In this document: piece after piece, positions 7,461 through 53,914 of the stretch
How positions within the stretch are numbered: position 1 is the stretch's first letter
Layout: each line of letters opens with the position of its first letter
Assembly: GCA_013816135.1 (NCBI GenBank)
Contig: JACDEV010000002.1
Span: 33,120 to 97,119, forward strand
Origin: Patescibacteria group bacterium
Lineage (GTDB): Bacteria > Patescibacteriota > Minisyncoccia > Phycocordibacterales > DATDWN01
DNA length: 64,000 bases
Direction of reading: 5' to 3'
The notes under the pieces: generated by a model
Seen by the model: only the letters and a program-made list of their open reading frames with translations
Told to the model about the DNA's origin: nothing
Databases searched by the model: none
Program-made: the position numbers and the translations under genes

Positions 7461-9401
7461 ATGGAAAAAGAAGGGAAAGTTTTTACAGGACCTATAAGTA
7501 TCAACACAAAAGGTGTTGGTTTTTTCGATATAGACCCAGGCGACAAAAAAAATGGAACAAGTATTGAGATTCAGCCCCAATTCATAAATAGGGCTTTTCA
7601 TGGAGATATTGTAGAAGTAACCTTAACTGGAGAGAAAATTCGAAATCGCGAGCAAGGCAAAGTAACAAAAATAGTAAAAAGATCAAAGGATGAGTTTGTA
7701 GGATTGATTGAAAAAAAAGAAGGAGCAACCTTTGTCACTCCAGATGACAAGCGTCTGTATGTAGACATCTTTCTTCCTGAAGGGAGCAACGCTCCAGAAG
7801 GAGAAAAAGTCTTAGTCAAAATCACCGATTGGGAAGCCAAAAATCTACAAGGTGAAGTCTTGAAGGTTATTGGTAAAAAAGGCGAAAATAATACAGAAAT
7901 GGAATCTATAGTCTTGGAAAAAGGCTTTAGAATAGAATTCCCCCACTCTGTTGAAGAAGAGGCGGAAAAGATCAAAAGAGAATATAAGAACAACTTTGAA
8001 GACGAGATAAAAAATCGCAGAGATATGCGTGGTGTAACAACAATGACTATCGACCCTGCTGATGCAAAGGACTTTGACGACGCAATTTCATTTGCAGATT
8101 TAGGAAATGACCAATTTGAGATTGGAATTCATATTGCTGATGTATCATATTTTGTTACTCCAGGAACTGAGCTCGATAGAGAATCAGAAAAGAGAGGTTT
8201 ATCTGTATATCTAGTTGATAGAACTATTCCTATGCTTCCTGAAGTCTTATCAAACGATTTGTGTTCACTTAATCCCAATGAAGATAAGTTTACTTTTTCT
8301 GCGGTATTCAAAATGACTGGCGAAGGAAAAGTTCTTGAAGAATGGTTTGGACGAACTGTAATCCACAGTGATAAAAGATTTACATATGAAGATGCAAATG
8401 ACGTAATCATCGGGAAAACAGATGGTCCATACAAGACAGAACTCCTAAAGCTTAACGAGATTGCAAAAAAACTGGAAAAAGCCAAATCCCAAAATGGCGC
8501 AATGAGCTTTGAAACCGAAGAAGTTAAATTTGAACTAGATAAAAATGGAAAACCTCTACGTGTATATAAAAAATCACGACTTGATACTCACAAGCTGGTT
8601 GAAGAATTTATGCTTTTAGCTAATCGCGCTGTGGCAAAGTACGTTTTCATGTCCCAGAATAAAGGATTGATGAAAGATAAAAAACAATCCGTTTACCGTA
8701 TCCATCCTCATCCAGATGTAGATAGAATCCAAAACCTTGCAGTTTTTCTGAAAGCTATGGGTTTTGATCTAAAGAACAAAGATGGAAAAGTAACTTCTGC
8801 GGATTTGAATGCACTACTCAAAGAAGCTAAAGGCACTCCAAACGAAGGCTTAATAAATACTGCAACTGTCCGAAGCATGGCCAAAGCTACTTACTCTACA
8901 AAAAACATCGGACACTTTAGCTTGGCGTTTACTTACTATACTCACTTCACCTCTCCTATCAGACGATATCCTGACGTTTTGGTGCATAGATTTTTGGAAC
9001 GTGAACTTAAAGGTGGAAAAGTGGAACAGAATGAATATGAGAAATTTGAAGCTATTTGCCTAGCTTCATCAGAACTGGAGAAAAAAGCATCTGATGCTGA
9101 ACGCTCTTCAATAAAATATAAACAAGTCGAATATATGACTGAACACATTGGGGAAATCTATGACGGTACGATTACGGGAGTAACTGAATGGGGAATTTAT
9201 ATAGAAGAAAAAGAAACAAAATGCGAAGGTATGGTAAAAACAAGAGACATTGGCGATGACTTCTATGTTCTGGATGAAAAAAACTATACATTGAAAGGAG
9301 AAAAAACTGGAAAAAAATATACTCTGGGAGATTCAGTAAAATTTAAAGTGGTTTCTGCAGATATGGAACGAAGAGTCTTGGATTACGCATTGCTAAGCTA
9401 A
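7461..9401 (+). CDS. rnr: ribonuclease R (RNB exoribonuclease with C-terminal S1 domain)
   Basis: N-terminal cold-shock-like OB fold, RNB catalytic domain (DPADAKDFDDAIS block), C-terminal S1 domain. Confidence 0.9.
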   Translation: MEKEGKVFTGPISINTKGVGFFDIDPGDKKNGTSIEIQPQFINRAFHGDIVEVTLTGEKIRNREQGKVTKIVKRSKDEFVGLIEKKEGATFVTPDDKRLYVDIFLPEGSNAPEGEKVLVKITDWEAKNLQGEVLKVIGKKGENNTEMESIVLEKGFRIEFPHSVEEEAEKIKREYKNNFEDEIKNRRDMRGVTTMTIDPADAKDFDDAISFADLGNDQFEIGIHIADVSYFVTPGTELDRESEKRGLSVYLVDRTIPMLPEVLSNDLCSLNPNEDKFTFSAVFKMTGEGKVLEEWFGRTVIHSDKRFTYEDANDVIIGKTDGPYKTELLKLNEIAKKLEKAKSQNGAMSFETEEVKFELDKNGKPLRVYKKSRLDTHKLVEEFMLLANRAVAKYVFMSQNKGLMKDKKQSVYRIHPHPDVDRIQNLAVFLKAMGFDLKNKDGKVTSADLNALLKEAKGTPNEGLINTATVRSMAKATYSTKNIGHFSLAFTYYTHFTSPIRRYPDVLVHRFLERELKGGKVEQNEYEKFEAICLASSELEKKASDAERSSIKYKQVEYMTEHIGEIYDGTITGVTEWGIYIEEKETKCEGMVKTRDIGDDFYVLDEKNYTLKGEKTGKKYTLGDSVKFKVVSADMERRVLDYALLS

Positions 9402-9407
9402 AAGGAA

Positions 9408-9442
9408 AACCTCGTGACGCTTGTAAACGACACGAGGTTTTG
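9408..9442 (+). terminator. rnr terminator hairpin
   Basis: AACCTCGTG...CACGAGGTT followed by TTTT. Confidence 0.5.
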
Positions 9443-9469
9443 AGCTAAAAGCAAGGTATGCAAATAAAA

Positions 9470-9754
9470 TTAGTGAATGACTGTGTCCCTCTGGCCAATA
9501 TGTGTGTCAATTGACCACCCAGCATTCACACCCGCTCCATTCACTTCACAAACGTTAATTTCGGAACCAACTTCCGGATTAACCCCTCCGTGAAAAGGAG
9601 CCTTAAAAACTTCAAGAACCTTAAAAGTGAGGTGCATCGTCTTCCCTTTCTCGACCTTGCTCTTGAGCCGAACTCTCCAGTGAGCACCATCTTCGTAATA
9701 GTTAGCCTCGTCTCCGACTTCCAGAATGTCTGACTGGTACATGTGTCCCTCCAC
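9470..9754 (-). CDS. hypothetical protein (GC-richer than surroundings)
   Basis: 94-aa ORF. No recognisable motif. Confidence 0.3.
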   Translation of the reverse strand: MEGHMYQSDILEVGDEANYYEDGAHWRVRLKSKVEKGKTMHLTFKVLEVFKAPFHGGVNPEVGSEINVCEVNGAGVNAGWSIDTHIGQRDTVIH

Positions 9755-9856
9755 TTTTAAAACTACAACGACAGCGTGAAAGTGTCAAATTTGGGGAGTC
9801 CGATATTAGAGATTAAAATTATTCAGTTATTTCTCGGACTAAAAGGCAAGAATAAT

Positions 9857-12103
9857 TTACTTTGCTACTGAAACAGCCTCCTCAAAAGCCACTGACAATA
9901 GTTTCGAACCTCCACCCATTCCCATTGTCACTCCATATAATATTCCAGCACGGGACATAGTTTCACGATTGTGAGTAATGACGATAAGCTGAGAATACTT
10001 AGAAAGATTCTCAATCATGTCAGCGTATTTTTTTGAATTAGCTTCATCTAGCGCCGCGTCAGTTTCATCGAGAATAATAAAGGGTGGTGGATTAACTTGA
10101 GAAATTGCAAACAATAAAGCAATGGAGGTTAGTGCTCTTTCACCACCAGAAAGCATCATCAAACCTTTGACTTTTTTCTTTGGCAAATTTACTTCTATCT
10201 CTATTCCCTCCTCTTCTTCTATCATTTCTGGAACTTCAATATCGTCCTCATCTAATGAAAGATCTGTATCTTTTTTCTTCTTTTTAACCGGAACTGTTAC
10301 AGAAAGCTTAGCTTCGCCACCTCCAAACATAACAGCAAAATATTCTTTAAACTGTGTGTTTATCTTATCTAAACCTGTCTTAAACTCCACACTTAATCGC
10401 GTATCAAGATCCTTTATTAACTCAGTTAATGATGAGGCAGATTTTTCTAAGTCTGTAATTTCTTTTTCCAAAAAAGCATCTCTTTCAGTAGCCTCTGTAA
10501 ACTCTTTGACCACATCAGATCCTCCCAGACCTCCAGCATCTTCCAATCGTATTTTTATCTTTTCTATTTTTCTTCGTCGTTCTTCCTGGAGAGTTCTTGC
10601 TTCATTGAAATCAAATGAAAGCGATTGGAACTGGAGAACATGAGTACCAAGAAGCATACCCAGCTCTGTTAGTTCTCTTTTAAAATCCTCTTTAAGAAGT
10701 TTCAAAGTCTCTTCTTCCAAATTCAAACTATGAAGTTTTGAACGAACTTCTTGTGACTCAGCCATGATCCTGAAAACAGCTTTTTCAGCATCTCTATTAG
10801 TATCTTTTTCTTTATCTATTGCTTCCTTCAATTCAGAATATTCTTTGCTAAGTTTATTTTCTCGATTTTTTATTTCTTCAAGTGAATCTTCTATCTGTTT
10901 CTTTGATTCTTTTAGATTTTCAATATCCTTTTGTGCATCTGCAATGAGAGACATATCTATTTTGTCTTTGTTCTGGTCTATAAAGTCAGTCAAAAAAGTC
11001 GATATTACATCCAATGATTTGACTAATTCTTCAATATTTCCTGAATTCTTTACCTGCTTTATTTGATCTTCAATTTTGCTCGATACTTCTTCAACAGATG
11101 AAAGAGTGACTGTCTTGTGATCCAGAGAGTGAGCTACTTCTTCCTGTTTTTTTACCATTCTTGCAAGAGATGATATTTCACCATCAAGCCGACCGAAATC
11201 TCTAAACAACTTATCTTTCTCTTCTCGAGTATCATGAAGAGATTTTTCCAGAGAAATCAGCTTTTCAGATTTTATATCTTTATTCTTTGCTCCTTCTAAT
11301 ACAGCCTTGGCTTCATTTAATTCATTTTCTAATGATTTTTCTTTTTCTAAAAGTGGTGACTTCTCAATATTCAATCTGTTTGTAGTCCTGTTTATATATT
11401 CATCTTCCCGACAACAATATTCCAAAGCTTCTTTCTGTAGTTCTTCCTTCATCTCTATGGTTTTCTGAACTTTCTCAACCTGCTTTTTTAGAAACCGGAT
11501 GTGTGGCATTATCTCTCTGCGGAGAGAACCCACTTGCTCTATGTTTTCGCGAGTCTTTACAAGCTTCCTTTCACTTTCTTGTTTCTTGTATTGATACATC
11601 TTCAATCCTAGTGCTTCCTCAATCATTGATTTTCTTTCCTTGATGGACGCATTCAGAACTCTATCAGCTTCGCCTTGAGAAATTATATGGTGTCCAGAAG
11701 AACCTATGTGAGCGCTAGCTAAAAGTTCAATGACGTCCCTTAGTCTGACCTGTGAGCCATTTATTAGATATTCATTTACAGAATCACGATGAACCACTCT
11801 TTCTATAGTTACTGTCTCAAAATCAAGAGGAAGGAATTTAGAGCTATTATCAAAAACAACCTTGACGCTTGCACGATTTCCTCGAGGCAACTCTCCTGCA
11901 CCATTGAAAATAAGATCTTCTCCTTTTTTGCCACGAAGTGATTTAATTGATTGCTCGCCTAAAACAAATCTAAATGCCTCAGCGATATTTGATTTACCTG
12001 AACCGTTCGGTCCGACAATAGCTGAGACTTTTGAAGAAAAATTAAGCTCGCTTTTTTTGGCGAAAGATTTGAATCCGGAAAGTTCGATACTCTTCAAGTA
12101 CAT
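9857..12103 (-). CDS. smc: SMC-family chromosome partition ATPase, unusually short (748 aa) and apparently hinge-less
   Basis: N-terminal head IELSGFKSFA...VGPNGSGKSNI (Walker A). C-terminal LSGGERALTSIALLFAI...FIILDETDAALD (ABC signature and Walker B). The middle is continuous coiled coil with no hinge-like Gly-rich block. Conserved rnc-smc synteny. Confidence 0.8.
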   Translation of the reverse strand: MYLKSIELSGFKSFAKKSELNFSSKVSAIVGPNGSGKSNIAEAFRFVLGEQSIKSLRGKKGEDLIFNGAGELPRGNRASVKVVFDNSSKFLPLDFETVTIERVVHRDSVNEYLINGSQVRLRDVIELLASAHIGSSGHHIISQGEADRVLNASIKERKSMIEEALGLKMYQYKKQESERKLVKTRENIEQVGSLRREIMPHIRFLKKQVEKVQKTIEMKEELQKEALEYCCREDEYINRTTNRLNIEKSPLLEKEKSLENELNEAKAVLEGAKNKDIKSEKLISLEKSLHDTREEKDKLFRDFGRLDGEISSLARMVKKQEEVAHSLDHKTVTLSSVEEVSSKIEDQIKQVKNSGNIEELVKSLDVISTFLTDFIDQNKDKIDMSLIADAQKDIENLKESKKQIEDSLEEIKNRENKLSKEYSELKEAIDKEKDTNRDAEKAVFRIMAESQEVRSKLHSLNLEEETLKLLKEDFKRELTELGMLLGTHVLQFQSLSFDFNEARTLQEERRRKIEKIKIRLEDAGGLGGSDVVKEFTEATERDAFLEKEITDLEKSASSLTELIKDLDTRLSVEFKTGLDKINTQFKEYFAVMFGGGEAKLSVTVPVKKKKKDTDLSLDEDDIEVPEMIEEEEGIEIEVNLPKKKVKGLMMLSGGERALTSIALLFAISQVNPPPFIILDETDAALDEANSKKYADMIENLSKYSQLIVITHNRETMSRAGILYGVTMGMGGGSKLLSVAFEEAVSVAK

Positions 12104-32061: not shown

Positions 32062-35000
32062 TTATGCCCTTACACGCTTTTTTGAAGTCCAAGTATTCAT
32101 TACTGTTCGAATTCTCTCCTGATCTTCTTTTTTATCTATATGAGTCAAGAAATACTTATCTAAGAGATTCCTAGCTACAGTTTCAGGATTTGCAGTAGCT
32201 TTCTCTTCTGGAGTCATCTTGCTAAGGGAGTATGCACAGCGTCGCAATTCACGACTAGTGATTGGCTGTGTAACAGGCAAAGCATTTCTTGATTCTCTAG
32301 TTTTTTCAAAAACTTTAATAAAGTCTGCTCTTAAATTATTGGAAAATTGGACTAATGCCAAAGAAGCATCCAAATCGAACTTTTGTGTACTTGTAGGGTC
32401 TTGAGCACCGTTCTCTATGCCATTTACATATCTATCCCAAAGTTTTACAAATTCGTTGCGCTCTAAGCTAGCCTCATATGTCAGATCTTCCAGCGAATCT
32501 ATACCTCTTGCCAACCGTAAAGCTTCCGATGCGTCATAAGGCAAATTCGGATTATTATCACCAGTATCTGGATTTCGTTTTAAAGGCGGATAATCTATTT
32601 CCATTTCTACCATACGGCTTCTGGTAGCAAGCTGAGGATCAAATGTTCCAGGATATCCAGGATTCATTGAACCGATCAAAATAACACTAGGTAATGCTTT
32701 TATTGTTTTTCCTGAGCTAGTCTTCAAAGTCAGTGAGCGCTTTTCATCCATAAGAGAATGTAGGAAGATCTGAGCCTGTTCCGGCATAGCATTCAATTCA
32801 TTAAAATAAACTATAGCCCCAGGAGTAGTAATTCCATTAAGTACGGCAGATGGCACCTTCACAGTTTGTGAAGCCCCATCCTTTGATTCGAGCATAACAT
32901 CTTCAGATAATTCAAATTCGGTGGTCCATTTTGAACAATCAATTCCAAAATACGGACGATGTGTTAAAGAAGAAAACATCTTTATCCTAACATCTTTTCC
33001 AGTGCCGGCATGGCCTTTCAAGTTTAAAAGATCTGCTTGCAAATCTAATTGCATCTTCAAAGCTTCTGCCATTTTTTCCAAATCCTTTTCTGTTTGGCTG
33101 TCTATAACCCAATGACTCTGCCATTCAGGAACATAACCTTTGCCGTTAGTATATCCTACTTCAGGCTCAGTTTTTACCTCGTCTATTCGTCTCAAAATTG
33201 AAATATTATGTTCCGCAGCAAAAGCTGAATATTCTTTTAATTTTTCTTTATATTCGTTTTGCCATACAACATCTAGTTCTGGTATTCTTTCACTTTTTTT
33301 TGGCCTTCGAGAATAAGTTTCCTTCAAAGCTTCTCTTTTCTTCTCAAATTCTGTCCTCAAAGGAGATTTTTCTCCTTGTGACCAGTCTGTATATTCTTTC
33401 CTTATATTTTTAAATTCTTTTGCACTCAAATATGATGGTGGAATAGACTCTCCTCGATAAGAAAGCAGTCCTAGTCTCCATTCATTTTCTTGTTCCCAAC
33501 CTTCATATAAACGAACATGTTCAACCTTGCCTGTAGACGTTTTAATTGATAGTGAAATATCGCCATAAATATCTGTAGCTTTGACACCTGGGCCGTGACT
33601 TCTCTCATCTTCTTCGAAAGTGACATCTACTTTACGTTCTACTTTTTCCTTTACTTTGGCTTCCCATTTTGGGAAAGGAGTTTTTCCAAACAAAATCATT
33701 TGCTGTCCTGTTTCTGCTACTTTTGTCATTGCCCCTCTTTCAATTTCGGTCAATGCATTGGAAATTCTTACTTTTAAACCTTTTTCTAATTCTTTTGCAA
33801 CATCAGGATTATCATTTGAAAGGCCCTTTATTTCTATTTCCAAAGTTTTTTTAGCTTCACTAGAAGAAAGGTACTGTTCAGCATCTTTTCTGCTAGTAAA
33901 TCCTTTTGTTCGCAATCTATCAATTAAACCGTCTGCATCTTGAGAAAGTACATCTACAGTCGTTCCTATTCTTTCAGAAGCTTTTTCTCTGACTTTTGCA
34001 TATTCTAATTTAAACTTTTCTTCATTTGTCGCTGCAATATGTTGTAATTCATTTCGAGCAGAGATTATGGCTTTGTATGCTTCATCAGCTTCCAGAGGAA
34101 CATCTTTTAGTAAGGAACCTAGTCTGGATTTTAATTGTGGATATCGGAATTCCAACCAATCATCCATCTGTGATTTGCTGGTAAAAGCTTCAATATCTAC
34201 CCTCGTTCTTTCTATCATTCCTGCTATATCTTTTGTGATCTCTCCACCACGTTGCCGAAAAAGTTCCAAAGACTTTTGTTCAAGTTCAGTCGATAATTCG
34301 CTCACTTCTTCACGTAAGTTATTTTCAAGAAGAGCTTCGACTGCCCTGACCTTGGTCATCATAGCTCTGGCTTCCCCCACAGAAGAAATAGTGAGTCCGC
34401 TGATAAGATTTGCTCGCACTGAAGTTAAAGCCTCTTGTGCAACTTTGAGTGCAAATTCTTTTTCTTTAGAGACAATAGGTTCTTCTAAACCTTCTATAAT
34501 GTAATCAATTTCATTTTGTTTAAGACCTTGTCTTACAAGAACACCTTTGAGTTTTTCAAATCCTTGCCTAACACGAAGTGCATCTTCTTCAGTTGTCATC
34601 TTCGAAATCACCTCACTAATCTGTTCTTTATATTTTATACGCAATGGATCCAGGTGTTCCAAGCTCTCTCCAGTTTTGGCAACCTTCTTTAAAGCTTCTG
34701 CTTCAAAAAGATCTCCAATAGAAACACCTTCTGCGATTTTGGCCACACGTCTTTTCTCCAGCTCTTCTTCAAAATCAGCAAAATTAGGTTCCAATATGAC
34801 CAAGAAACCATCTTTATTGATAGCTCTGATTCTTCCAGTAGAATCAAAATTAACCTGAGTTAGTCCTGGAACTCTCTTAACTTCTTCGAGCGTATCTTTA
34901 GTAATTACAACTAGATCTTCTTTTGAATAAAAAAAGAAAAAATTACCTGTAGGATCTATCTGAAGATTACTTATACTTTCATATTTTTTTGGGAATAGAA

Positions 35001-35949
35001 CTGAAACTGGACTCCATATAGAGGTATCTTGACTCATATCTAATTTAAATACTTCACTAGGATTATTATTTCTACAATAAAATATTGTATTAGGATTTTT
35101 CGGATCCTTTACAATATTATTCTTTATTCCCGAAATATTATCAAAAAAGAGTGGCTTTTCATTTATTTTATTCTTATCTACAATATTTATACCAATATCA
35201 GTAATTAAAACTCCATATTTCTCATGTGAAATATCGCAATATTCCCCGGGCAATCCTTCAAAAGTTTCAATGTATTTCTGCAGGTCTTCTGGAACAACTT
35301 CAGAGTTAGGGTCTATTCTTTTCCAGTTTCGAGGAGCTTGAATAACTCCTGCGGCATTCTCAGTAATGTAGGATATAAATAGATTTTTACCTTTATTACC
35401 AAAAACAATATATTTACCACCATTAAGGATGTGAGCTGAAGGTTCACTAAGTAGAAGGTGTTCTTTTTGATGAAAGTTAGCTATTGGAAAACACCAGTCA
35501 TTACTATGTCTTTTTATAATATCTCCTCCTTTTTTATGTAAAAATGGTGGTAAATCCTTTAAATTGAGTACCATTGAATGTACTTGACTATCATTTCCTA
35601 AGTGAGTTTTTCTTTTGTCTTGAACTATTTTTTTTATATCAATGTCTACATTGGTTTTATTCAATGAATCACTGAAATCCTTAACTTCTTCACCTTTATC
35701 ATCATAAATAGTTATTTTATCTGAATTTTCCAAAACGACTATTGTATAGTCATTCCATGGTAAGATATTTTCAATTTTTTGTGATCTTCCACCTTCTTTA
35801 TTGATCGGTTTTTCAGATCTTCTTATCTCCTTAAGCTCTAGTTCTGCTAATGCCTCATTATCCTTTGGAGCTGATGATTGTTGTGGAACTGGAACATCAC
35901 TATGGGCCGGAATTCCTGACATTGCTCCTTCACGATTAAAAATAGACAT
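32062..35949 (-). CDS. giant (1295 aa) protein with a C-terminal MoxR-like/AAA_5-type AAA+ ATPase domain
   Basis: Walker A LKGHAGTGKD (~33000), Walker B IVYFNELNAM, sensor-1/Arg-finger region ILIGSMNPGYPGTFDPQLATRSRM. The N-terminal ~900 aa are unassigned (possible beta-rich repeats then long helical region). 2 nt separate it from the downstream vWA gene. Confidence 0.75.
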   Translation of the reverse strand: MSIFNREGAMSGIPAHSDVPVPQQSSAPKDNEALAELELKEIRRSEKPINKEGGRSQKIENILPWNDYTIVVLENSDKITIYDDKGEEVKDFSDSLNKTNVDIDIKKIVQDKRKTHLGNDSQVHSMVLNLKDLPPFLHKKGGDIIKRHSNDWCFPIANFHQKEHLLLSEPSAHILNGGKYIVFGNKGKNLFISYITENAAGVIQAPRNWKRIDPNSEVVPEDLQKYIETFEGLPGEYCDISHEKYGVLITDIGINIVDKNKINEKPLFFDNISGIKNNIVKDPKNPNTIFYCRNNNPSEVFKLDMSQDTSIWSPVSVLFPKKYESISNLQIDPTGNFFFFYSKEDLVVITKDTLEEVKRVPGLTQVNFDSTGRIRAINKDGFLVILEPNFADFEEELEKRRVAKIAEGVSIGDLFEAEALKKVAKTGESLEHLDPLRIKYKEQISEVISKMTTEEDALRVRQGFEKLKGVLVRQGLKQNEIDYIIEGLEEPIVSKEKEFALKVAQEALTSVRANLISGLTISSVGEARAMMTKVRAVEALLENNLREEVSELSTELEQKSLELFRQRGGEITKDIAGMIERTRVDIEAFTSKSQMDDWLEFRYPQLKSRLGSLLKDVPLEADEAYKAIISARNELQHIAATNEEKFKLEYAKVREKASERIGTTVDVLSQDADGLIDRLRTKGFTSRKDAEQYLSSSEAKKTLEIEIKGLSNDNPDVAKELEKGLKVRISNALTEIERGAMTKVAETGQQMILFGKTPFPKWEAKVKEKVERKVDVTFEEDERSHGPGVKATDIYGDISLSIKTSTGKVEHVRLYEGWEQENEWRLGLLSYRGESIPPSYLSAKEFKNIRKEYTDWSQGEKSPLRTEFEKKREALKETYSRRPKKSERIPELDVVWQNEYKEKLKEYSAFAAEHNISILRRIDEVKTEPEVGYTNGKGYVPEWQSHWVIDSQTEKDLEKMAEALKMQLDLQADLLNLKGHAGTGKDVRIKMFSSLTHRPYFGIDCSKWTTEFELSEDVMLESKDGASQTVKVPSAVLNGITTPGAIVYFNELNAMPEQAQIFLHSLMDEKRSLTLKTSSGKTIKALPSVILIGSMNPGYPGTFDPQLATRSRMVEMEIDYPPLKRNPDTGDNNPNLPYDASEALRLARGIDSLEDLTYEASLERNEFVKLWDRYVNGIENGAQDPTSTQKFDLDASLALVQFSNNLRADFIKVFEKTRESRNALPVTQPITSRELRRCAYSLSKMTPEEKATANPETVARNLLDKYFLTHIDKKEDQERIRTVMNTWTSKKRVRA

Positions 35950-49135: not shown

Positions 49136-50164
49136 TTATAAAAAACTTGCAGTCTTTACAACATGTTCAACCAAAGAATGTGTGTATCCCATTTCATTAT
49201 CATACCAAGCCATCACCTTCACCAAATTTCCGCCAATCACTCGTGTCAATCCAAGGTCAGCTATTGAAGCATACTTACTGCCTAGAATATCAGAAGAAAC
49301 AATCGGATCTTCTGTCACTGAAAAAATATTTGCCCAATGTTTATCTTCGCTGGCTTTCTTTAATATTTCATTTACTTCTTTGACACTAGTTTCTCGTTTA
49401 GAAATAAAAGTTATATCGACTATTGATCCTGCAATTACTGGCACTCTGATAGCAATACCATCAAACTTACCTTCAAGCTGAGTCATAACCTTTGTCACTG
49501 CAATTGCCGCTCCTGTAGTTGTTGGAACTATATTCTGTGCAGCAGCTCTTCCTTCCTTAAAGTCCTTTGCATTTGGACCATCCACAATTCCTTGGCTAGC
49601 AGTGTAACCATGAACTGTGTTGAGCACGGCTTTTTCGATTCCTATCGCTCCATCCAAGATAGACAAAACTGGGCTTCCGGCATTTGTAGTACAGGATGCA
49701 TTAGAAGTGACAATTTTCTCATTCAAAGTATCACAATTTATTCCCATAAGTATTGTTCCTTCATCAGCTGCACTTGGATTATCTTTTGCTGGCGCAGTAA
49801 TTACCACTTTCTTTGCCCCAGCTGTGACATGAGCCCGAGCTTTTTCAAACGAAGTAAAGAATCCGGTAGATTCAACTACCACATCTATTTCAAGATCTTT
49901 CCAAGGCAAGTTCACAGGGTCTTTTTCAGATAAAAAAGCAACTTCTTGACCATCGACAATAATATTTTTTTTGTCAGCAGAAGTAGTTACAGAAGTGAAT
50001 TTCTGTCCATAAGCAGTATCGTATTTTAATAAATAAGCGATGTTATCAATATTTCCTAAGTCATTTATAGCGACCACTTCAATATCTTCTCTTGTATGAG
50101 CGATTCTGAAAAAAGCTCTTCCTATTCTTCCACCTCCGTTAATTGCCACTTTGATTTTCTTCAT
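49136..50164 (-). CDS. gap: glyceraldehyde-3-phosphate dehydrogenase
   Basis: INGGGRIGR Rossmann motif and ASCTTN active site. Confidence 0.9.
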   Translation of the reverse strand: MKKIKVAINGGGRIGRAFFRIAHTREDIEVVAINDLGNIDNIAYLLKYDTAYGQKFTSVTTSADKKNIIVDGQEVAFLSEKDPVNLPWKDLEIDVVVESTGFFTSFEKARAHVTAGAKKVVITAPAKDNPSAADEGTILMGINCDTLNEKIVTSNASCTTNAGSPVLSILDGAIGIEKAVLNTVHGYTASQGIVDGPNAKDFKEGRAAAQNIVPTTTGAAIAVTKVMTQLEGKFDGIAIRVPVIAGSIVDITFISKRETSVKEVNEILKKASEDKHWANIFSVTEDPIVSSDILGSKYASIADLGLTRVIGGNLVKVMAWYDNEMGYTHSLVEHVVKTASFL

Positions 50165-50530: not shown

Positions 50531-53317
50531 TTATTTTTCTATTAAAACTATATTATCTTGCGTTCCCCATACCTCGCTTAATCCGGTATAATCTGCTGAA
50601 ATCGAAATATCCTCAGAATTGTATAAAAAAGGCACAGACCAACTAACATGCATACCTGCTACCAGAGAGCCGAACATGAATACAAATTTATTCTTCTGAA
50701 GAAATTCGGGATGTTTATTTGATGTATATTTATAATAATCCAACCCAGGTATCCAATATTTATCACTATATTTACTTTTAATATACATTCCTACTTCATA
50801 CAAACTTTTACCCACCATTTCATCCAAAGAAAATATTTTTATTTTATCTGATGGTATTAAATCATAATTTATCATTGCAGTGTCTAGATTTAGAACATAT
50901 TCTGCATTATTTCTCGGATCATTATTTTCCCTTATTTGATAATCTAATTGATTTTGCTTAACTATTTCTGGGGTAGGATTTATAGGCTGGAGATTAAAAG
51001 ATGAATGTTTATAAAGATCTACAAGCACAGGATTAAATATCTCGGCCAAAGCTTCCAATGAGAGATTTGAGATTTTTTCCTCCTTCACACTTTCCTTTTT
51101 AGGATTTACTGACTTTCCCCCAGCAGGCCAAGCTTCTCTACTTGGTCCTCGTCCAAAAATATAATCAACTGTATCTCTTGGGCCATTAAACTCTATTGTC
51201 CTTCCTAGCGGAATCTTTGGAGCTTTTATATCAAAAGAATTTACTACTCCGCCCGTCCCATAATCAGGTCTTTGTTCCCAACCGCTGCTTGTAAAAAAAC
51301 CAAACTGATCTTTAAACAACTGATAAAGATAAGCTTTGTCTGTTGGGTTAGTGCTTTGAGAAACAAATTCTTTCCACAAATAATAATCTAATTCATATTT
51401 ATATCCTTCTTTCTGCCACTGTGACAGAACTTTATCTAATCCTCGCATTGAAAGCACTGACTCCTTTAGCATATATTGAATTGCCCTTTGTCCTCCCTCT
51501 TTAAAGTAAAAAGCGCTGTTTGACTCTTTGCCAGCAAAAACATTTTGGGTAACCCTTGCAACCTTAGCCAGATTCCAAAGCTTATCCACTGTATCTTCTG
51601 GTACTTCTAGATTTCCATTATCATCCATCACTTTAGAAATAAGCAGTTGGAATAATTCATTTTCTCCACCCGCCTCTGAATAAATAGTCCCTTCTGTTAC
51701 TTGTGGCAAATAATCATATTCAATTTTATAAATTCTAGACAAAAAAGCAGGGTCCATGTCTTGTCTATCGACATATCTGTCATCTCCTTGATTTAAATTC
51801 CCAGTCATTATAACGCCGTAACCCTCTTTCACAGTTATTGCTGAACCGCTGTTTTGTTGGACACTTACTTCATCACCCACTTTTCTTGTCAAAATATGAT
51901 TCATACTTATAAGAAGTTCATGCGGAATAGCGTTTACTTCGTCGATAATAACTGGCTTTCCTTCTGCCATTGCTCGATAAATTGGTCCGATAAAAAAATC
52001 AGATATGGTTCCACCTTTGAACTGAGTTAAATAAGTTTGAAGTAACCTCTCATGTGCTCGGTTTTTTTCATTTTCTGCGATCTCTGGAGGCAGTGAACTT
52101 AATTTATCTTGATTCTCTATAATCCAATCATCATATTTTTTCTCAACATTTTTTACAAAAACTTCAAGTTCTTCCTTCTTTATTTTTTCAATATCAAGCA
52201 CCTGATGACCATACAACTCAGCACTAGACATGTTCTTTGACCCAGAAATAACTAAAGCAGACCTGTGAGAACTATCTAATTCTTTTCTTTCCTCCTTTTG
52301 TTCTTCCAAAGAGGCGTTCGGATTTTTTTCTAACCATACCTTGTAAGATTCTTCAATTTTTTGGTCGATATCAGGCCGATCATTCAAAATATAATTTTTA
52401 GCAATATGCATTGCTAATTCAGTTTTACCGCTTCCAAGATGTCCATATATCATTACTGGTTTTCCGGAATTCAAGTGGCTGACAACATCTTCGATGTTCT
52501 TAACTACATATGGAGTTTCTGCAATACGACCGTTTTCTAAGTCATCTTTGTATTTTTTTAGTTGCTTAAGGTGTAATCCATAATAAGCTTCAGGTGAGGA
52601 AACAAGTAGATTTTCTTTTTTCCATTGTTCCTCATTTATTTCTTCTCTGATCTCATTTAAAGCTTCCAGTTCAGAACTACCAGGTTCCTCTTTCATACTT
52701 TTCAAAATTTCACTTTCTTCTTTTCTTAAAGAACGAAGGCGTGACTCTATATCATGTTCTTCCCTCAAAGCTTGTCGTAGATTTGCAGTTTTAAATTTTA
52801 TTAATTTTTTTTCTGGAGAATTATCCTTTCCCAAACTTTCTTCTAATTCTCTTTCCAAACTCTCTTCATTAATTAAAGCTTTATTTGCAACTCTAGGCCT
52901 TCTAGACTTTGAAAGAACCTCTTCAGGCTTTAAAGGCATTCTTTCTGTGTTCGAAAGTTCAGTCTCTTTATATAGCTCATTCTTTACTTTATGAAGTTGT
53001 CTTGCTTTCTTTTCGATGTCATTGACCTTATATTCAATTTGAGGCCATTCCACTGGCTCTTCTTCAACAACTATCTCCCCTATAAAATACCCTGAGTAAG
53101 GGTCAGCAGGATTAGAATCACTAATAATTCTGATTGTATGAGGATCTGTTCCAGGTGATTGGGTACCTTGAAGTCTGATTATTTTTCTTCCTTTTGCACT
53201 ACTTTCCCACGCTATAACATTATTATTTTTATCTTTCTTCTCTTTAAAAAAAACGCCTGAAAGCACCTTATTATCTTCTTGTTTTTCAATTGTTTCGCTT
53301 GATGGGAATTTTTCCAT
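50531..53317 (-). CDS. MoxR-like/AAA_5-type AAA+ ATPase (928 aa) with long N- and C-terminal extensions
   Basis: Walker A GHLGSGKTE (~52430), then a ~150-aa insertion, Walker B PVIIDEVNAIP, and sensor/Arg region VIMTGNLNQGDDRYVDRQDMDPAFLSRI. Confidence 0.75.
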   Translation of the reverse strand: MEKFPSSETIEKQEDNKVLSGVFFKEKKDKNNNVIAWESSAKGRKIIRLQGTQSPGTDPHTIRIISDSNPADPYSGYFIGEIVVEEEPVEWPQIEYKVNDIEKKARQLHKVKNELYKETELSNTERMPLKPEEVLSKSRRPRVANKALINEESLERELEESLGKDNSPEKKLIKFKTANLRQALREEHDIESRLRSLRKEESEILKSMKEEPGSSELEALNEIREEINEEQWKKENLLVSSPEAYYGLHLKQLKKYKDDLENGRIAETPYVVKNIEDVVSHLNSGKPVMIYGHLGSGKTELAMHIAKNYILNDRPDIDQKIEESYKVWLEKNPNASLEEQKEERKELDSSHRSALVISGSKNMSSAELYGHQVLDIEKIKKEELEVFVKNVEKKYDDWIIENQDKLSSLPPEIAENEKNRAHERLLQTYLTQFKGGTISDFFIGPIYRAMAEGKPVIIDEVNAIPHELLISMNHILTRKVGDEVSVQQNSGSAITVKEGYGVIMTGNLNQGDDRYVDRQDMDPAFLSRIYKIEYDYLPQVTEGTIYSEAGGENELFQLLISKVMDDNGNLEVPEDTVDKLWNLAKVARVTQNVFAGKESNSAFYFKEGGQRAIQYMLKESVLSMRGLDKVLSQWQKEGYKYELDYYLWKEFVSQSTNPTDKAYLYQLFKDQFGFFTSSGWEQRPDYGTGGVVNSFDIKAPKIPLGRTIEFNGPRDTVDYIFGRGPSREAWPAGGKSVNPKKESVKEEKISNLSLEALAEIFNPVLVDLYKHSSFNLQPINPTPEIVKQNQLDYQIRENNDPRNNAEYVLNLDTAMINYDLIPSDKIKIFSLDEMVGKSLYEVGMYIKSKYSDKYWIPGLDYYKYTSNKHPEFLQKNKFVFMFGSLVAGMHVSWSVPFLYNSEDISISADYTGLSEVWGTQDNIVLIEK

Positions 53318-53372
53318 TTCTATATATAAATTATATATTTATAATAGCTAATTATAGACAACATTGTAATAC

Positions 53373-53401
53373 TTGACAGTATAATGATTGTCTGCTATGC
53401 T
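53373..53401 (+). promoter_or_regulatory. candidate promoter TTGACA-N17-TATGCT (plus strand, intergenic)
   Basis: -35 at 53373-53378, -10 at 53396-53401. The downstream + strand transcript would end at the 53625-53648 terminator. Confidence 0.35.
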
Positions 53402-53624
53402 TATTTTAGAATATATGGTGTATGATTTCGTTAACGTTTAAGGTCTTATGGAGCTATGACTCCAACGCTTAAAAGCGGGTTTCTTGATTAGCCAAATCAT
53501 GAAAGCACTCCCACGCTTCGTTTGTCTAGCCACGACAAACGAAGCACAAGCCCATAAAAGCGGAAGGCCTAGAGTAAAGAAACTGGAGACCCACCATGGA
53601 CCAACATTGAATAAGCTTTTGTAA

Positions 53625-53648
53625 GGGCCCCTCGATAGGGGCCTTTTA
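53625..53648 (+). terminator. plus-strand rho-independent terminator
   Basis: GGGCCCCTCGATAGGGGCC followed by TTTT. Confidence 0.55.
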
Positions 53649-53698
53649 TCTTCCAAAATAGCCTTAGAAATAAGGTTATTTTTGTATTTAAAATTAAC

Positions 53699-53727
53699 TT
53701 GACAAACATAGCTGGGTCTGCTATACT
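53699..53727 (+). promoter_or_regulatory. candidate promoter TTGACA-N17-TATACT (plus strand, intergenic)
   Basis: -35 at 53699-53704, -10 at 53722-53727. The transcript would end at the 53888-53913 terminator (~175 nt). Confidence 0.45.
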
Positions 53728-53850
53728 ATCTACAGTAGTTGGAATTTTTTTCAACTATAGTTCCTTAGGAAAATGTTTATTGTCCGAGTTGATGGTTAGC
53801 CACACCATCATGCTTCTCGGCTTCTAGTTGCTTAGCCACAGCGACAAGAT

Positions 53851-53913
53851 GAAAAAAATGAGACTCTTTAAATAAAGAGTCAAACAAGTCCATCTTAAAG
53901 GTGGACTTTTTTT
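53851..53913. terminator. back-to-back terminators: minus-strand hairpin GAGACTCTTTAAATAAAGAGTC with an A-run (53851-53881) and plus-strand hairpin GTCCATCTTAAAGGTGGAC followed by T7 (53888-53913)
   Basis: The minus-strand hairpin/T-run ends the upstream vWA gene transcript. The plus-strand hairpin/T-run ends the candidate plus-strand sRNA. Confidence 0.55.
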
Positions 53914-53914
53914 A

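What the first reader, a model, noticed from the sequence alone, without database searches (positions are those of the whole stretch)
53367..53913. Two promoter/terminator-defined plus-strand sRNA candidates between the vWA and AAA+ genes
The 600-bp gap between the two minus-strand genes of the second module contains two plus-strand units. Unit 1 runs from TTGACA-N17-TATGCT (53373-53401) to the terminator at 53625-53648 (~230 nt). Unit 2 runs from TTGACA-N17-TATACT (53699-53727) to the terminator at 53888-53913 (~175 nt). Both promoters share a GTCTGCTAT block between -35 and -10, so they look duplicated. Unit 1 would be antisense to the promoter/5'-UTR of the AAA+ gene and contains a GC-rich hairpin GCTTCGTTTGTC-TAGCCAC-GACAAACGAAGC. 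The loop motif TAGCCAC recurs twice in unit 2. Only tiny ORFs are present (longest ~42 aa). This looks like antisense/sRNA control of the AAA+/vWA module.
Basis: seen in the sequence. Interest (0 to 1): 0.6.

Follow-up and report, generated by a model that had tools for sequence, protein, structure and literature searches.

The report
New sRNA pair inside vWA–ATPase module
The gap holds two real small-RNA genes of an undescribed family from Patescibacteria, each showing two hairpins with a UAGCCAC-type loop, and the family occurs only where the neighbouring AAA+ ATPase has an extra RNA-binding-like domain, so the RNAs are probably a working part of that protein machine rather than antisense regulators.

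Summary
Two plus-strand units lie at 53408-53650 and 53734-53913. Each has a near-consensus TTGACA-N17-TGnTAnnnT promoter and an intrinsic terminator.

Each unit carries two hairpins whose 7-nt loop reads UAGCCA(C/A), four in all. These are the only stem-closed copies of the motif in 64 kb.

The same arrangement recurs in about 18 other Patescibacteria loci: HExxH-vWA gene, then 1-3 such sRNAs on the opposite strand, then an AAA_5 ATPase gene. It appears in several genomic contexts.

- Loops are invariant and stems covary (84-90% paired, every pair with double changes, 0/500 shuffles).
- Promoters occur on the RNA strand in 24/27 units and on the other strand in 0/27.
- No Rfam family matches, and no paper was found.

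The RNA co-occurs with an extra ~80-aa N-terminal domain on the ATPase: 18 of 19 loci with the domain, 0 of 26 without it. A blind test gave 5/5 against 0/3. The domain models as a six-stranded β domain whose best, though weak, matches are S1/TRAM OB folds.

Best reading: these are dedicated protein-binding sRNAs of a MoxR-like AAA+/vWA module, and the OB domain binds their loops. The antisense-control idea is not supported. The function of the module is unknown.

The parts
53373..53401 (+). Unit 1 promoter: -35 TTGACA, 17-nt spacer, extended -10 TGC-TATGCT
   Evidence: 10/12 matches, TG present. The equivalent promoter is present upstream of 24/27 family members on this strand and 0/27 on the other.
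53408..53650 (+). Unit 1 sRNA, about 240 nt (5' end inferred from the -10 box, 3' end from the terminator T-run)
   Evidence: Fold z = -3.8. CM R1 hit at 53465-53557, 52.2 bits, E = 2e-15. No Rfam match.
53483..53501 (+). Unit 1 hairpin H1: stem UGAU/AUCA, 7-nt loop UAGCCAA (53489-53495)
   Evidence: (D1/D5). Aligns with H1 of all relatives in A3.
53515..53545 (+). Unit 1 hairpin H2: perfect 12-bp stem, loop UAGCCAC (53527-53533)
   Evidence: (I6). Stems covary in relatives.
53623..53650 (+). Unit 1 intrinsic terminator (GGGCCCCU-CGAU-AGGGGCC plus U-run)
   Evidence: (I11). The T-run is on the plus strand only.
53699..53727 (+). Unit 2 promoter: TTGACA-N17-TGC-TATACT
   Evidence: 11/12 matches, TG present.
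53734..53913 (+). Unit 2 sRNA, about 180 nt
   Evidence: Fold z = -5.1. CM R1 hit at 53773-53863, 64.6 bits, E = 1e-19.
53734..53758 (+). Unit 2 5' hairpin (10-bp stem)
   Evidence: MFE and centroid. Conservation not assessed.
53784..53820 (+). Unit 2 hairpin H1: outer stem CCGAG/CUCGG, internal loop, inner stem GAUGGU/ACCAUC, loop UAGCCAC (53797-53803)
   Evidence: The same GAG..CUC outer stem is seen in L001 and L003 unit 2.
53827..53845 (+). Unit 2 hairpin H2: stem GUUGCU/AGCGAC (one G·U pair), loop UAGCCAC (53833-53839)
53862..53881 (.). Palindromic hairpin GACUCUUUA-AA-UAAAGAGUC. It is part of unit 2 on the plus strand. On the minus strand it is followed by a T-run, so it is a candidate terminator of the vWA mRNA.
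   Evidence: (minus-strand terminator-like site 53881-53862).
53886..53913 (+). Unit 2 intrinsic terminator (10-bp stem plus U7). It ends 2 nt before the vWA stop codon.
53915..56140 (-). Partner gene 1: 741-aa protein with an N-terminal HExxH region (H112, E113, H116 invariant) and a C-terminal vWA domain with a MIDAS DxSxS motif (D538, S540, S542)
   Evidence: invariant columns; model pLDDT 81; NorD, Rea1/MDN1 MIDAS, TRAP; VWA Pfam hits in 7/31 homologues.
50531..53317 (-). Partner gene 2: 928-aa AAA_5 (MoxR-like) NTPase. Walker A GHLGSGKT at 292-299, Walker B VIIDEVN at 456-462, sensor-1 N507.
53048..53266 (-). Codons for the N-terminal ~75-80-aa domain (aa ~18-90) of the ATPase. This is the predicted S1/TRAM-like OB fold whose presence tracks the sRNA.
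53351..53379 (-). Promoter-like site CTGTCA-N17-TATAAT, back to back with the unit 1 promoter. It is a candidate AAA+ gene promoter (not verified).
   Evidence: 10/12 matches.

Best explanation
The gap encodes two independently transcribed, structured small RNAs of about 240 and 180 nt. They belong to a previously undescribed Patescibacteria RNA family.

**Family definition**
- A strong sigma-70-type promoter.
- Two extended hairpins, each presenting the 7-nt loop U-A-G-C-C-A-(C/A/U), closed by a U-A or C-G pair.
- A Rho-independent terminator.

**Genomic setting**
The RNA gene(s), 1-3 per locus, are an integral third component of a two-protein module. The proteins are a HExxH + MIDAS-vWA protein and a MoxR-like AAA_5 NTPase.

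**Proposed mechanism**
- Shown by comparative evidence: the RNA exists only where the NTPase carries an extra N-terminal ~80-aa β-domain.
- Inferred: that domain has an OB fold of the S1/TRAM type and binds the UAGCCAY loops. This would resemble the TRAM domain of MiaB or MtaB holding an anticodon stem-loop, or Rho's N-terminal OB folds holding C-rich RNA.
- Inferred: each RNA, with its two loops, bridges two protomers of the ATPase ring, and so loads, gates or assembles the ATPase-vWA machine.
- Not decided by my data: whether the RNA activates (cofactor or scaffold) or restrains (sequestering, antitoxin-like) the machine.
- Unknown: the module's cellular target.
For: **1. The genes are real and the strand is set**
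- Promoter and terminator are present in the window.
- Across 27 family members, a TTGAC[AT]-N16-18-TAnnnT promoter lies within 330 nt upstream on the RNA strand in 24/27 and on the other strand in 0/27.
- A terminator lies downstream in 25/27 on the RNA strand against 9/27 on the other.
- Predicted RNA lengths are 127-408 nt.

**2. The structure is conserved**
- MAFFT alignment A3, 18 sequences: loops invariant, 84% of cells paired, 12/12 pairs with changes on both sides, covariation score 0.625 against 0.21 in shuffles (0/500 reach it). Slid controls pair at 31-48%.
- CM-based alignment A5, 27 sequences: 90.5% paired, 9/9 pairs with double changes.

**3. The location is specific**
- CM R1 searched over 510 kb in 54 sources. 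It hits only the vWA-to-AAA+ gap, on the opposite strand.
- A motif-only scan of metagenome contigs returned 5 true hits, representing 4 distinct RNA loci. Every contig with enough flank showed a vWA-sized or ATPase ORF beside the RNA. The other 11 hits were stemless chance matches.

**4. The module moves as a unit**
Its neighbours differ between loci: nrdAB/gap in the window and L003, SurA/YceG in L001, T4SS/RT in L005, and enolase/PGK in L069 and L070.

**5. The RNA is coupled to the protein domain**
- ATPases of RNA-bearing loci align from residue ~1-18. Those of RNA-less loci start at residue ~88.
- Loci with the domain carry the RNA in 18/19 cases. Loci without it carry the RNA in 0/26.
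- Prospective test: 5 unseen domain-positive ATPases all had a 400-1435-bp gap with CM hits. Three domain-negative ones had none.
- The one exception, L023, has a promoter-plus-terminator RNA in the gap with altered loops, and its domain is more divergent.

**6. Domain fold**
- The AlphaFold model has six strands and pLDDT 83.
- Foldseek top hits are MtaB and MiaB, the latter as RNA complexes.

**7. Domain distribution**
The domain is found in 134 clusters at 50% identity. In 8 of 10 sampled proteins it sits in an AAA_5 protein.
Against: - There is no expression data, so transcription is inferred from sequence signals only.
- Co-occurrence could reflect shared ancestry. The domain-positive ATPases may form one clade, so the 18/19 against 0/26 counts are not independent events.
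- G·U and A·C counts in the stems are equal, 17 each. Stem chemistry therefore does not confirm the strand by itself.
- Two further copies of the double hairpin lie outside any vWA/AAA+ gap in L072, next to hammerhead-like cores and a tmRNA-like fragment. The RNA may have another partner or origin.
- RNA-protein binding was not and cannot be tested here.
Confidence: 0.6

Rival explanations
1. Cis-antisense or transcriptional-interference control. The opposite-strand sRNA genes exist to pair with, or collide with, transcripts of the vWA and AAA+ genes. They would block read-through from vWA into AAA+, or pair with a long AAA+ 5'-UTR or the vWA 3'-UTR. The hairpins would serve only for stability.
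For: - Position and orientation between the two genes are strictly conserved.
- Unit 2's last ~60 nt overlap a minus-strand terminator-like hairpin of the vWA mRNA.
- In some loci, such as L020, the sRNA -35 box lies only ~25-35 nt from the AAA+ start. The AAA+ mRNA there may have to start inside, or read through, the sRNA gene.
- Strong convergent promoters would insulate the two genes from each other.
Against: - Antisense action needs no conserved sequence, yet the 7-nt loops are invariant across classes of Patescibacteria while the stems drift and compensate.
- There are two loops per RNA and 1-3 RNAs per locus.
- The RNA appears only with the extra ATPase domain, which interference does not explain.
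- There is no overlap with any coding sequence. A candidate AAA+ promoter lies outside unit 1.
Confidence: 0.12
2. RNA antitoxin or decoy of a conflict (anti-phage or anti-mobile-element) system. The abundant, constitutively made sRNA keeps an OB-AAA+/vWA-metalloprotease effector inactive. Loss of the RNA, or competition by an invader RNA carrying the same hairpins, triggers it. This shares the RNA-OB binding step with the best explanation but commits to an inhibitory, immune role.
For: - The module sits in different genomic neighbourhoods, once beside T4SS and reverse-transcriptase genes in L005.
- vWA-MoxR pairs are cores of known conflict systems (PMC7159879, listed).
- Extra copies of the double hairpin occur in L072 in a region with hammerhead-like cores beside a tmRNA-like fragment, which looks like an integrated element.
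Against: - PADLOC gives only marginal P-loop hits.
- No nuclease or other obvious toxin is present.
- Several loci lie among housekeeping genes such as nrdAB, gap, pgk and eno.
- Two pattern scans of viral contigs found no genuine copy of the RNA.
- The family is widespread in Patescibacteria, as a core gene pair might be.
Confidence: 0.15
3. Trans-acting sRNAs or ligands of some other protein. Candidates are the HExxH-vWA protein's N-terminal region, the RRM protein encoded at 61187-61561, or an unlinked factor. Linkage to the module would then be co-regulation only, and the ATPase N-domain would be unrelated to RNA binding.
For: - The fold evidence for an RNA-binding OB domain is weak.
- An RRM-type RNA-binding regulator gene lies 7 kb away.
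- Copies of the motif outside the module exist in L072.
Against: - RNA and N-domain presence or absence coincide in 44 of 45 loci, and in the blind test.
- The RRM gene is syntenic only in the window and L003, not in L001 or L005.
- vWA proteins of RNA-less loci are full length.
Confidence: 0.1
4. Not RNA at all. The inverted repeats would be DNA operators or recombination sites in an intergenic control region.
For: The palindromes lie between two genes. The opposite strand folds about as well in silico.
Against: - DNA-binding sites conserve the arm sequence. Here the arms vary freely with compensation, while the asymmetric, non-palindromic 7-nt centre is invariant.
- Every unit is bracketed by a promoter and a T-run terminator on one strand only.
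Confidence: 0.03

Closest known systems
Bacterial Y RNAs with Rsr/Ro60 (e.g. Deinococcus Y RNA, Salmonella YrlA/YrlB). Comparison from my own knowledge.
   Same: - One or two structured ~100-250-nt sRNA genes are encoded right next to a vWA-domain protein gene.
- The RNA acts as a dedicated protein ligand or tether. In Deinococcus it links Ro60 to the S1/KH domains of PNPase.
- Here too the partners are a vWA protein and an S1-like OB domain.
   Different: - There is no TROVE domain: Pfam finds none, and no Ro60 appears among the 50 listed fold matches, which cover only the vWA part of the model.
- There is no Rfam Y_RNA or YrlA match, even at E up to 10.
- The defining element here is a pair of UAGCCAY loops, not a bulged terminal stem or a tRNA-like module.
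- The RNA is on the opposite strand, and the partner is an AAA_5 NTPase.
MoxR-type AAA+ / vWA-MIDAS pairs (NorQ-NorD, CbbQ-CbbO, RavA-ViaA, Rea1/MDN1)
   Same: - An AAA_5 NTPase gene lies adjacent to a MIDAS-containing vWA gene.
- The vWA model's best structural match is NorD in the NorQD complex, followed by the Rea1/MDN1 MIDAS domain.
- Walker A, Walker B and sensor-1 are invariant.
   Different: - None of the known pairs has a dedicated RNA, as far as I know and as far as the literature searches show.
- The vWA protein here carries an HExxH region.
- The ATPase has an N-terminal OB-like domain, a ~170-aa charged linker and a ~150-aa insertion between Walker A and Walker B.
Type I CoCoNuT CnuB/McrB-like GTPases (Bell et al. 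2024, PMC11090510)
   Same: The NTPase architecture is the same: an N-terminal cold-shock-like OB fold, then a coiled coil, then an AAA_5-family NTPase domain. That system is predicted to engage RNA.
   Different: - No McrC/DUF2357 partner or nuclease is present. The partner is a vWA protein.
- The McrB NxxD/NxD signature is not conserved. The region reads TGN-L-N-Q-G-Q-E in most members, and D512 occurs in only 9 of 121.
- That paper describes no dedicated ncRNA (0 occurrences of 'ncRNA').
- CoCoNuTs are found mostly in Pseudomonadota and Bacillota, not Patescibacteria.
CsrB/RsmZ-type protein-sequestering sRNAs. Comparison from my own knowledge.
   Same: - The RNA is built of repeated hairpins that display one short conserved loop motif, while the stems drift.
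- Copy number varies.
- The promoter is strong and the terminator is intrinsic.
   Different: - The loop motif is UAGCCAY, not A(N)GGA.
- There are only two hairpins per RNA.
- The RNA is genetically locked to one protein module rather than acting as a global regulator.
TRAM domain-anticodon stem-loop recognition (MiaB/MtaB/RimO) and Rho's N-terminal OB fold. Comparison from fold hits plus my own knowledge.
   Same: - A small OB-type β-domain attached to an enzyme holds a 7-nt-loop hairpin or C-rich single strand.
- Rho combines six OB folds with a hexameric NTPase, as proposed here.
   Different: - The loop lacks the universal U33 of anticodon loops: UAGCCAA against UUGCCAA in tRNA-Gly(GCC).
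- There is no radical-SAM or RecA-type domain.

Membership tests
Any Rfam 15 family | Covariance-model score at or above the family's gathering threshold | tested here: not met
   The whole window at gathering threshold gives only tRNA-Thr. The gap at E up to 10 has a best hit of 23.9 bits against a gathering score of 80 (STnc400), matching terminator-like parts only. Relatives L053, L015, L068 and L070-72 also have no match.
Y RNA / Ro60 (Rsr) system | Adjacent gene encodes a TROVE-domain Ro60 orthologue | tested here: not met
   There is no TROVE hit in Pfam or NCBIfam for the 741-aa protein or for 31 homologues. The fold matches are vWA only.
Y RNA / Ro60 (Rsr) system | Terminal stem with a conserved bulged Ro-binding helix; tRNA-like module in YrlA | tested here: not met
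   No Y_RNA or YrlA model hit at E up to 10. The conserved elements are two internal hairpin loops.
cis-encoded antisense RNA | The transcript overlaps the target gene's coding sequence or 5'-UTR on the opposite strand | tested here: inconclusive
   There is no overlap with either coding sequence. Unit 2's 3' end overlaps a putative vWA 3'-UTR and terminator. Overlap with the AAA+ 5'-UTR depends on an unmapped transcription start. A candidate promoter would put that start outside unit 1.
CsrB/RsmZ-type sequestering sRNA | Multiple GGA-containing loops that bind CsrA/RsmA | tested here: not met
   The loops read UAGCCA(C/A/U) in 55 of 56 hairpins, with no GGA.
Type III toxin-antitoxin RNA (ToxI-like) | Tandem direct repeats of ~36 nt next to an endoribonuclease toxin gene | tested here: not met
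   No tandem array was found, only dispersed 12-20-nt similarities. The neighbours are vWA and AAA_5 proteins.
tRNA-like / anticodon-stem-loop mimic | 7-nt loop with U33 and purine 37 on a 5-bp stem; or a cloverleaf detectable by ARAGORN or the tRNA covariance model | tested here: not met
   The second loop position is A, not U, in all copies. ARAGORN and Rfam find no tRNA or tmRNA in the gap. The resemblance to the tRNA-Gly(GCC) loop is 6/7 and is not significant.
MoxR-type AAA+ / vWA pair (protein part of the module) | AAA_5 NTPase with intact Walker A, Walker B and sensor-1 | tested here: met
   AAA_5 hit at E = 2.9e-8. G292-K298-T299, D459-E460 and N507 are invariant or nearly so in 121 sequences.
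MoxR-type AAA+ / vWA pair (protein part of the module) | Adjacent vWA protein with a MIDAS motif (DxSxS...T...D) | tested here: met
   D538, S540, S542, T628 and D663 are invariant. The fold matches NorD and the Rea1 MIDAS domain. Adjacency is conserved in more than 40 loci.
McrB-like GTPase / CoCoNuT CnuB | NxxD (or NxD) GTPase signature after sensor-1; McrC (DUF2357) partner | tested here: not met
   The window has N509-Q-G-D512, but position 512 is Q in 103 of 121 homologues. No McrC-like gene lies next to the module in any locus examined.
S1 / TRAM OB-fold RNA-binding domain (ATPase N-domain) | Five-stranded β-barrel of OB topology, detectable by sequence profile or by a strong structural match | tested here: inconclusive
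   [not shown]

The most novel reading that the evidence does not exclude
Patescibacteria, which are ultra-small and mostly episymbiotic bacteria, possess an unrecognised ribonucleoprotein machine. It would be a MoxR-like AAA+ ring whose N-terminal OB domains are loaded with dedicated sRNAs through anticodon-stem-loop-like UAGCCAY hairpins. The ring would work with a vWA-tethered HExxH metalloprotease. The RNA would be the switch, either a gate or a sensor-decoy, that decides when the ATPase/protease fires. This would be the first RNA-dependent member of the MoxR/vWA world.
Probability: 0.35. Interest if true: 0.85.

Novelty: new variant of a known kind. Interest (0 to 1): 0.7.

Why it matters
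- Almost nothing is known about regulatory or structural non-coding RNAs in the Candidate Phyla Radiation. This is a well-supported new family with clean covariation and a defined genomic partner.
- MoxR/vWA systems are widespread protein-remodelling or conflict modules and have never been linked to an RNA. A dedicated RNA plus a matching OB-like domain on the ATPase points to an RNA-gated or RNA-scaffolded variant.
- The hypothesis is directly testable with three small parts: an 80-aa domain, a 20-nt hairpin and an ATPase assay.
- The promoters are near-consensus sigma-70 type, so heterologous expression in E. coli is feasible even though the organisms are uncultured.

Tried and rejected
- **Rfam.** I searched the window at gathering threshold, the gap at E up to 10, and relatives. 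Nothing matched.
- **tRNA or tmRNA mimicry.** ARAGORN found nothing in the gap. The loop resembles the tRNA-Gly(GCC) anticodon loop at 6/7 positions but lacks U33, so I judged it chance.
- **Ro60/Y-RNA idea.** Rejected, because there is no TROVE domain and no model hit.
- **G·U against A·C counts to fix the strand.** The result was 17 against 17, which is uninformative. The strand therefore rests on promoters and terminators.
- **Complement of the loop (GUGGCUA) as an mRNA target near the module's start codons.** None was found. The other three TAGCCAC sites in the window are at chance level.
- **Word-index protein search with the N-domain alone.** It found nothing. The full HMMER scan worked instead.
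- **Viral contig scans with two loop-pair patterns.** One gave 0 hits. The other gave 13 hits, and inspection of the four best-scoring showed coding or tandem repeats without the family's structure. There is no evidence for a phage origin.
- **Metagenome pattern scan.** Eleven of 16 hits were chance matches in GC-rich coding DNA.
- **McrB GTPase signature.** It is not conserved.
- **Pairwise identity of full-length units, to separate orthologues from recent duplicates.** Uninformative, about 0.6 for all pairs.
- **PADLOC.** Only marginal P-loop hits.
- **Pfam on the extra ORFs that replace the RNA in L007, L009, L074 and L075.** No family at or above Pfam's own cut-offs; one L074 ORF gave only two marginal sub-threshold hits.
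- **The afdb50 fold library.** It was unavailable.
Full report
**1. What is in the window**

The window is a chromosome segment of a Patescibacteria (CPR) bacterium. The 741-aa protein encoded at 53915-56140 is 100% identical to 'H0W91_01045 [Patescibacteria group bacterium]'.

The minus strand reads, from higher to lower coordinates:
- nrdA (57446-60241)
- nrdB (56249-57274)
- the 741-aa protein (53915-56140)
- a 597-bp gap (53318-53914)
- a 928-aa AAA_5 protein (50531-53317)
- gap/GAPDH (49136-50164)

**2. Checking the observation**

- The two plus-strand promoters, TTGACA-N17-TATGCT at 53373-53401 and TTGACA-N17-TATACT at 53699-53727, are the two top-scoring promoter-like sites in 52000-55500. 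Both have a TG extended -10.
- The two terminators are real: 53623-53646 plus a T-run, and 53886-53908 plus T7.
- The perfect 12-bp hairpin with loop TAGCCAC lies at 53515-53545 (I6).
- TAGCCAC recurs at 53797 and 53833.

- Both unit 2 copies are also hairpin loops.
- Unit 1 has a second hairpin with loop TAGCCAA at 53489-53495.

So each unit has two hairpins of the same kind. In the whole window TAGCCA[ACT] occurs 20 times on both strands, and only these four copies are closed by at least 3 bp.

Both units fold much better than dinucleotide shuffles, with z = -3.8 and -5.1. The opposite strand also folds well, so folding energy does not pick the strand.

Rfam finds nothing, whether at gathering threshold on the whole window or at E up to 10 on the gap. 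ARAGORN finds nothing in the gap.

**3. The flanking proteins**

*The 741-aa protein*
- It has no Pfam hit itself.
- An alignment of 31 homologues shows an invariant HExxH (H112, E113, H116) and a MIDAS motif (D538-x-S540-x-S542, T628, D663).
- The AlphaFold model has pLDDT 81. It matches NorD in the NorQD complex, the Rea1/MDN1 MIDAS domain and TRAP vWA domains.
- The profile matches TRAP in the PDB.
- Seven of 31 homologues hit Pfam VWA, and one hits DUF2201_N weakly.

*The 928-aa protein*
- It is an AAA_5 NTPase.
- Walker A, Walker B and sensor-1 are invariant.
- The McrB-type NxxD signature is not conserved: D512 is Q in 103 of 121 homologues.

I therefore treat the pair as a MoxR-like AAA+/vWA module.

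**4. Relatives: the gap is a conserved third part of the module**

The three closest vWA homologues on long contigs (L001, L003, L005) all show vWA, then a 670-760-bp gap, then AAA_5. Their neighbours differ:
- L003 is syntenic with the window.
- L001 sits between SurA-like and YceG genes.
- L005 sits next to T4SS and reverse-transcriptase genes.

- The TAGCCAC loops are invariant.
- The stems differ and compensate. For example, GTTTGTC/GACAAAC, TTCCCC/GGGAA, TTGCT/AGCAA and ACTGTC/GACAGT all occupy the same position.
- The TTGACA-N17-TGCTAT promoters are conserved on the strand opposite to the genes.

A genome scan with the vWA alignment gave 46 loci. Hairpins of the form stem-[TAGCCA(C/A/T)]-stem occur in pairs, only in the vWA-to-AAA+ gap and only on the opposite strand. 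They were seen in L001, L003, L005, L014, L015, L017-L022 and the window, with 1-3 units per locus.

A scan of metagenome contigs used only the two loop motifs, with no protein information. It gave 16 hits. Five were genuine, representing four distinct loci (L053 and L057 are the same contig; L061, L062, L065). Wherever enough flank was available, the RNA lay beside a vWA-sized ORF on the opposite strand, and L053, L061 and L065 also carry the ATPase N-domain ORF. L062 is cut at the RNA's 5' side, and its flank holds only two adjacent ORFs that I did not identify. The other 11 hits were stemless matches in GC-rich coding DNA, about the number expected by chance.

**5. Structure and strand**

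*Covariation*
- On a MAFFT alignment of 18 double-hairpin cores (A3), the two apical helices are 84% paired. All 12 pairs have changes on both sides. The covariation score is 0.625 against 0.21 ± 0.03 in shuffles (0/500). When the 3' partner is slid by 1-3 columns, only 31-48% of cells pair.
- RNAalifold finds the same two helices independently.
- On a covariance-model alignment of 27 hits (A5), pairing is 90.5% and all 9 pairs have double changes. This alignment is fitted to the model, so it leans towards the structure.
- Across 56 hairpins the loop is UAGCCAC (27), UAGCCAU (19), UAGCCAA (9) or UAGCUAC (1). The closing pair is always U-A (29) or C-G (27).
- Many hairpins continue through an asymmetric internal loop into a lower stem, for example CCGAG-UU-GAUGGU[loop]ACCAUC-AUGCUU-CUCGG in unit 2.

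*Strand*
- G·U against A·C counts are 17 against 17, which is uninformative.
- Transcription signals are decisive. A TTGAC[AT]-N16-18-TAnnnT promoter lies within 330 nt upstream in 24/27 units on the RNA strand and in 0/27 on the other.
- A hairpin plus T-run terminator follows in 25/27 units on the RNA strand against 9/27 on the other.
- Predicted lengths are 127-408 nt.

*Specificity*
- Covariance model R1 was searched over 54 sources totalling 510 kb. It hits only the gaps described. It hits nowhere else in the window and in no vWA locus that lacks a gap.

**6. The decisive comparative result**

The AAA_5 gene follows the vWA gene in nearly all loci, with or without the RNA.

The ATPases of RNA-bearing loci have about 80-90 extra N-terminal residues. 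Their consensus is ..V.F.E.KDK.G.V.GY.SS..GRK.I.L ... Y.V.I.EDT.P.DP.SG.Y.V.IV. The ATPases of RNA-less loci start at about residue 88 of the window protein.

*Prospective test*
- An HMM of this domain marks 28 of 120 ATPase homologues.
- I fetched five domain-positive proteins I had not yet examined (L068-L072). One of them, L069, matches the L015 locus already in the model. All five have a 400-1435-bp gap after the vWA gene with R1 hits on the opposite strand.
- I fetched three domain-negative proteins (L073-L075). They have no gap RNA and no hits.

*All loci*
- Eighteen of 19 domain-positive loci carry the RNA. None of 26 domain-negative loci does.
- The exception, L023, has a promoter-plus-terminator RNA in the gap whose loops read ..GCCAUA.., and its domain is more divergent. 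This looks like co-variation rather than a counter-example.

*The domain itself*
- It has no Pfam or PDB sequence match.
- Its AlphaFold model is a six-stranded β-domain with pLDDT 83.
- The best Foldseek hits are MtaB and MiaB, the latter as RNA complexes, with E at least 0.057.
- HMMER against 1.84 billion representatives finds the domain in 134 clusters, usually at the N-terminus. Eight of 10 sampled proteins are AAA_5 proteins.
- In the window only the 928-aa ATPase has it. The other AAA_5 protein (32062-35949) does not.

**7. Interpretation**

*Shown*
- Two conserved, independently promoted and terminated structured RNAs.
- A family-defining pair of UAGCCAY loops.
- Obligatory linkage to a vWA/AAA_5 module.
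- Strict co-occurrence with an extra ATPase domain.

*Inferred*
- The domain has an S1/TRAM-type OB fold that binds the loops.
- One RNA with two loops can bridge two protomers of the ATPase ring.
- The RNA thereby scaffolds, activates or restrains the machine.

*Analogies*
- TRAM domains holding anticodon stem-loops.
- Rho's OB folds feeding a hexameric NTPase.
- Y RNA tethering Ro60, a vWA protein, to the S1/KH domains of PNPase.
- CsrB-type hairpin arrays.
- On the protein side, the OB + coiled-coil + AAA_5 architecture of Type I CoCoNuT CnuB proteins, which are predicted to target RNA (PMC11090510).

None of these is a membership. The defining features of Y RNA, CsrB, ToxI, tRNA mimics, McrB and CoCoNuT were tested and not met (see the membership table).

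It is not supported as the main mechanism.
- There is no overlap with any coding sequence.
- Unit 1 diverges from the AAA+ start. A candidate AAA+ promoter at 53379-53351 would start that mRNA outside unit 1.
- Conservation is concentrated in single-stranded loops.

Some antisense or insulating side effect cannot be excluded.
- Unit 2's last ~60 nt overlap a probable vWA terminator at 53881-53862.
- In loci such as L020 there is little room for a separate AAA+ promoter.

**8. Novelty**

- No Rfam 15 family matches the window's units or relatives.
- Full-text searches found no description of an RNA linked to MoxR/vWA systems, and none of this motif. The searches combined Patescibacteria or CPR with ncRNA terms, MoxR with vWA and ncRNA, Patescibacteria with MoxR, and MoxR with OB-fold.
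- I rate it a new RNA family that defines a new, RNA-containing variant of a known kind of protein system.

**9. Limits**

- There is no expression or binding data.
- The OB-fold call is weak.
- The co-occurrence counts are not phylogenetically independent.
- Two extra copies of the double hairpin lie outside any module in L072 and are unexplained.
- The cellular role of the module is unknown. Housekeeping neighbours in several loci argue for a core function, and variable contexts argue for a conflict system.

Noticed in passing
L072:7560-10343 (+), GCA_034680565.1 JAXOUH010031737.1: Downstream of that locus's vWA-sRNA-AAA module lies a 136-nt tmRNA-like match (8070-8205, Rfam RF00023, 65.5 bits, with the model's ends only). 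After it come two tandem units. Each has a ~92-aa ORF, a double UAGCCAU hairpin (R1 hits at 8968-9053, E = 0.003, and 10039-10124, E = 6e-6) and a type-III hammerhead-like core (CUGAUGA-stem-GAAAC). The sRNA motif therefore also occurs outside the module, in what looks like an integrated element.
   Followed up: partly
It has a 1295-aa AAA_5 protein followed by a 1050-aa protein with a transglutaminase core and a weak TerY-like vWA hit. It lies just downstream of tRNA-Thr(UGU). It has neither the N-terminal OB-like domain nor any R1 hit.
   Followed up: partly
L007:7040-8134, L009:3819-4961, L074:1619-3959: In some RNA-less relatives, one or more protein-coding ORFs of 290-380 aa occupy the position between the vWA and AAA_5 genes where the sRNAs sit in the window. 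None reaches a Pfam family's own cut-off. They might replace the RNA functionally.
   Followed up: partly
L023:4250-4640 (-): This is a variant member. The gap holds a TTGACA-N17-TATAAT promoter and a strong terminator flanking a ~260-nt RNA. Its hairpin loops read UCCGCCAUA and GCCCACCAUA instead of UAGCCAY. The adjacent ATPase N-domain is the most divergent one (E = 4e-13).
   Followed up: no
window 53351-53379 (-) against 53373-53378 (+): The unit 1 -35 box (TTGACA) and a minus-strand promoter-like site (CTGTCA-N17-TATAAT) overlap back to back. This would make the sRNA and AAA+ promoters divergent and possibly mutually exclusive.
   Followed up: no
window 50531-53317 (-): The database search found no identical or near-identical entry for the 928-aa ATPase. 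The best hit is 58% identical. The neighbouring vWA protein has a 100% NCBI entry. The ATPase gene may be unannotated or annotated differently in the source assembly.
   Followed up: no
window 61187-61561 (-): An RRM-type RNA-binding regulator (NF058537 Rbp_regulator, 109.5 bits) is encoded 7 kb from the sRNAs. It is syntenic in L003 but not in L001 or L005, so it is probably unrelated to the module.
   Followed up: partly
window 50531-53317 (-), aa 300-455: The ATPase has an insertion of about 150 residues between Walker A (292-299) and Walker B (456-462). A highly charged, probably helical linker of ~170 residues lies between the N-domain and the NTPase core. Neither was modelled.
   Followed up: no
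L018:7395-8152: In L018 the N-domain is encoded in a separate frame (7772-8152) from the ATPase core (8046-9974). This is either a frameshift in the assembly or a split gene.
   Followed up: no
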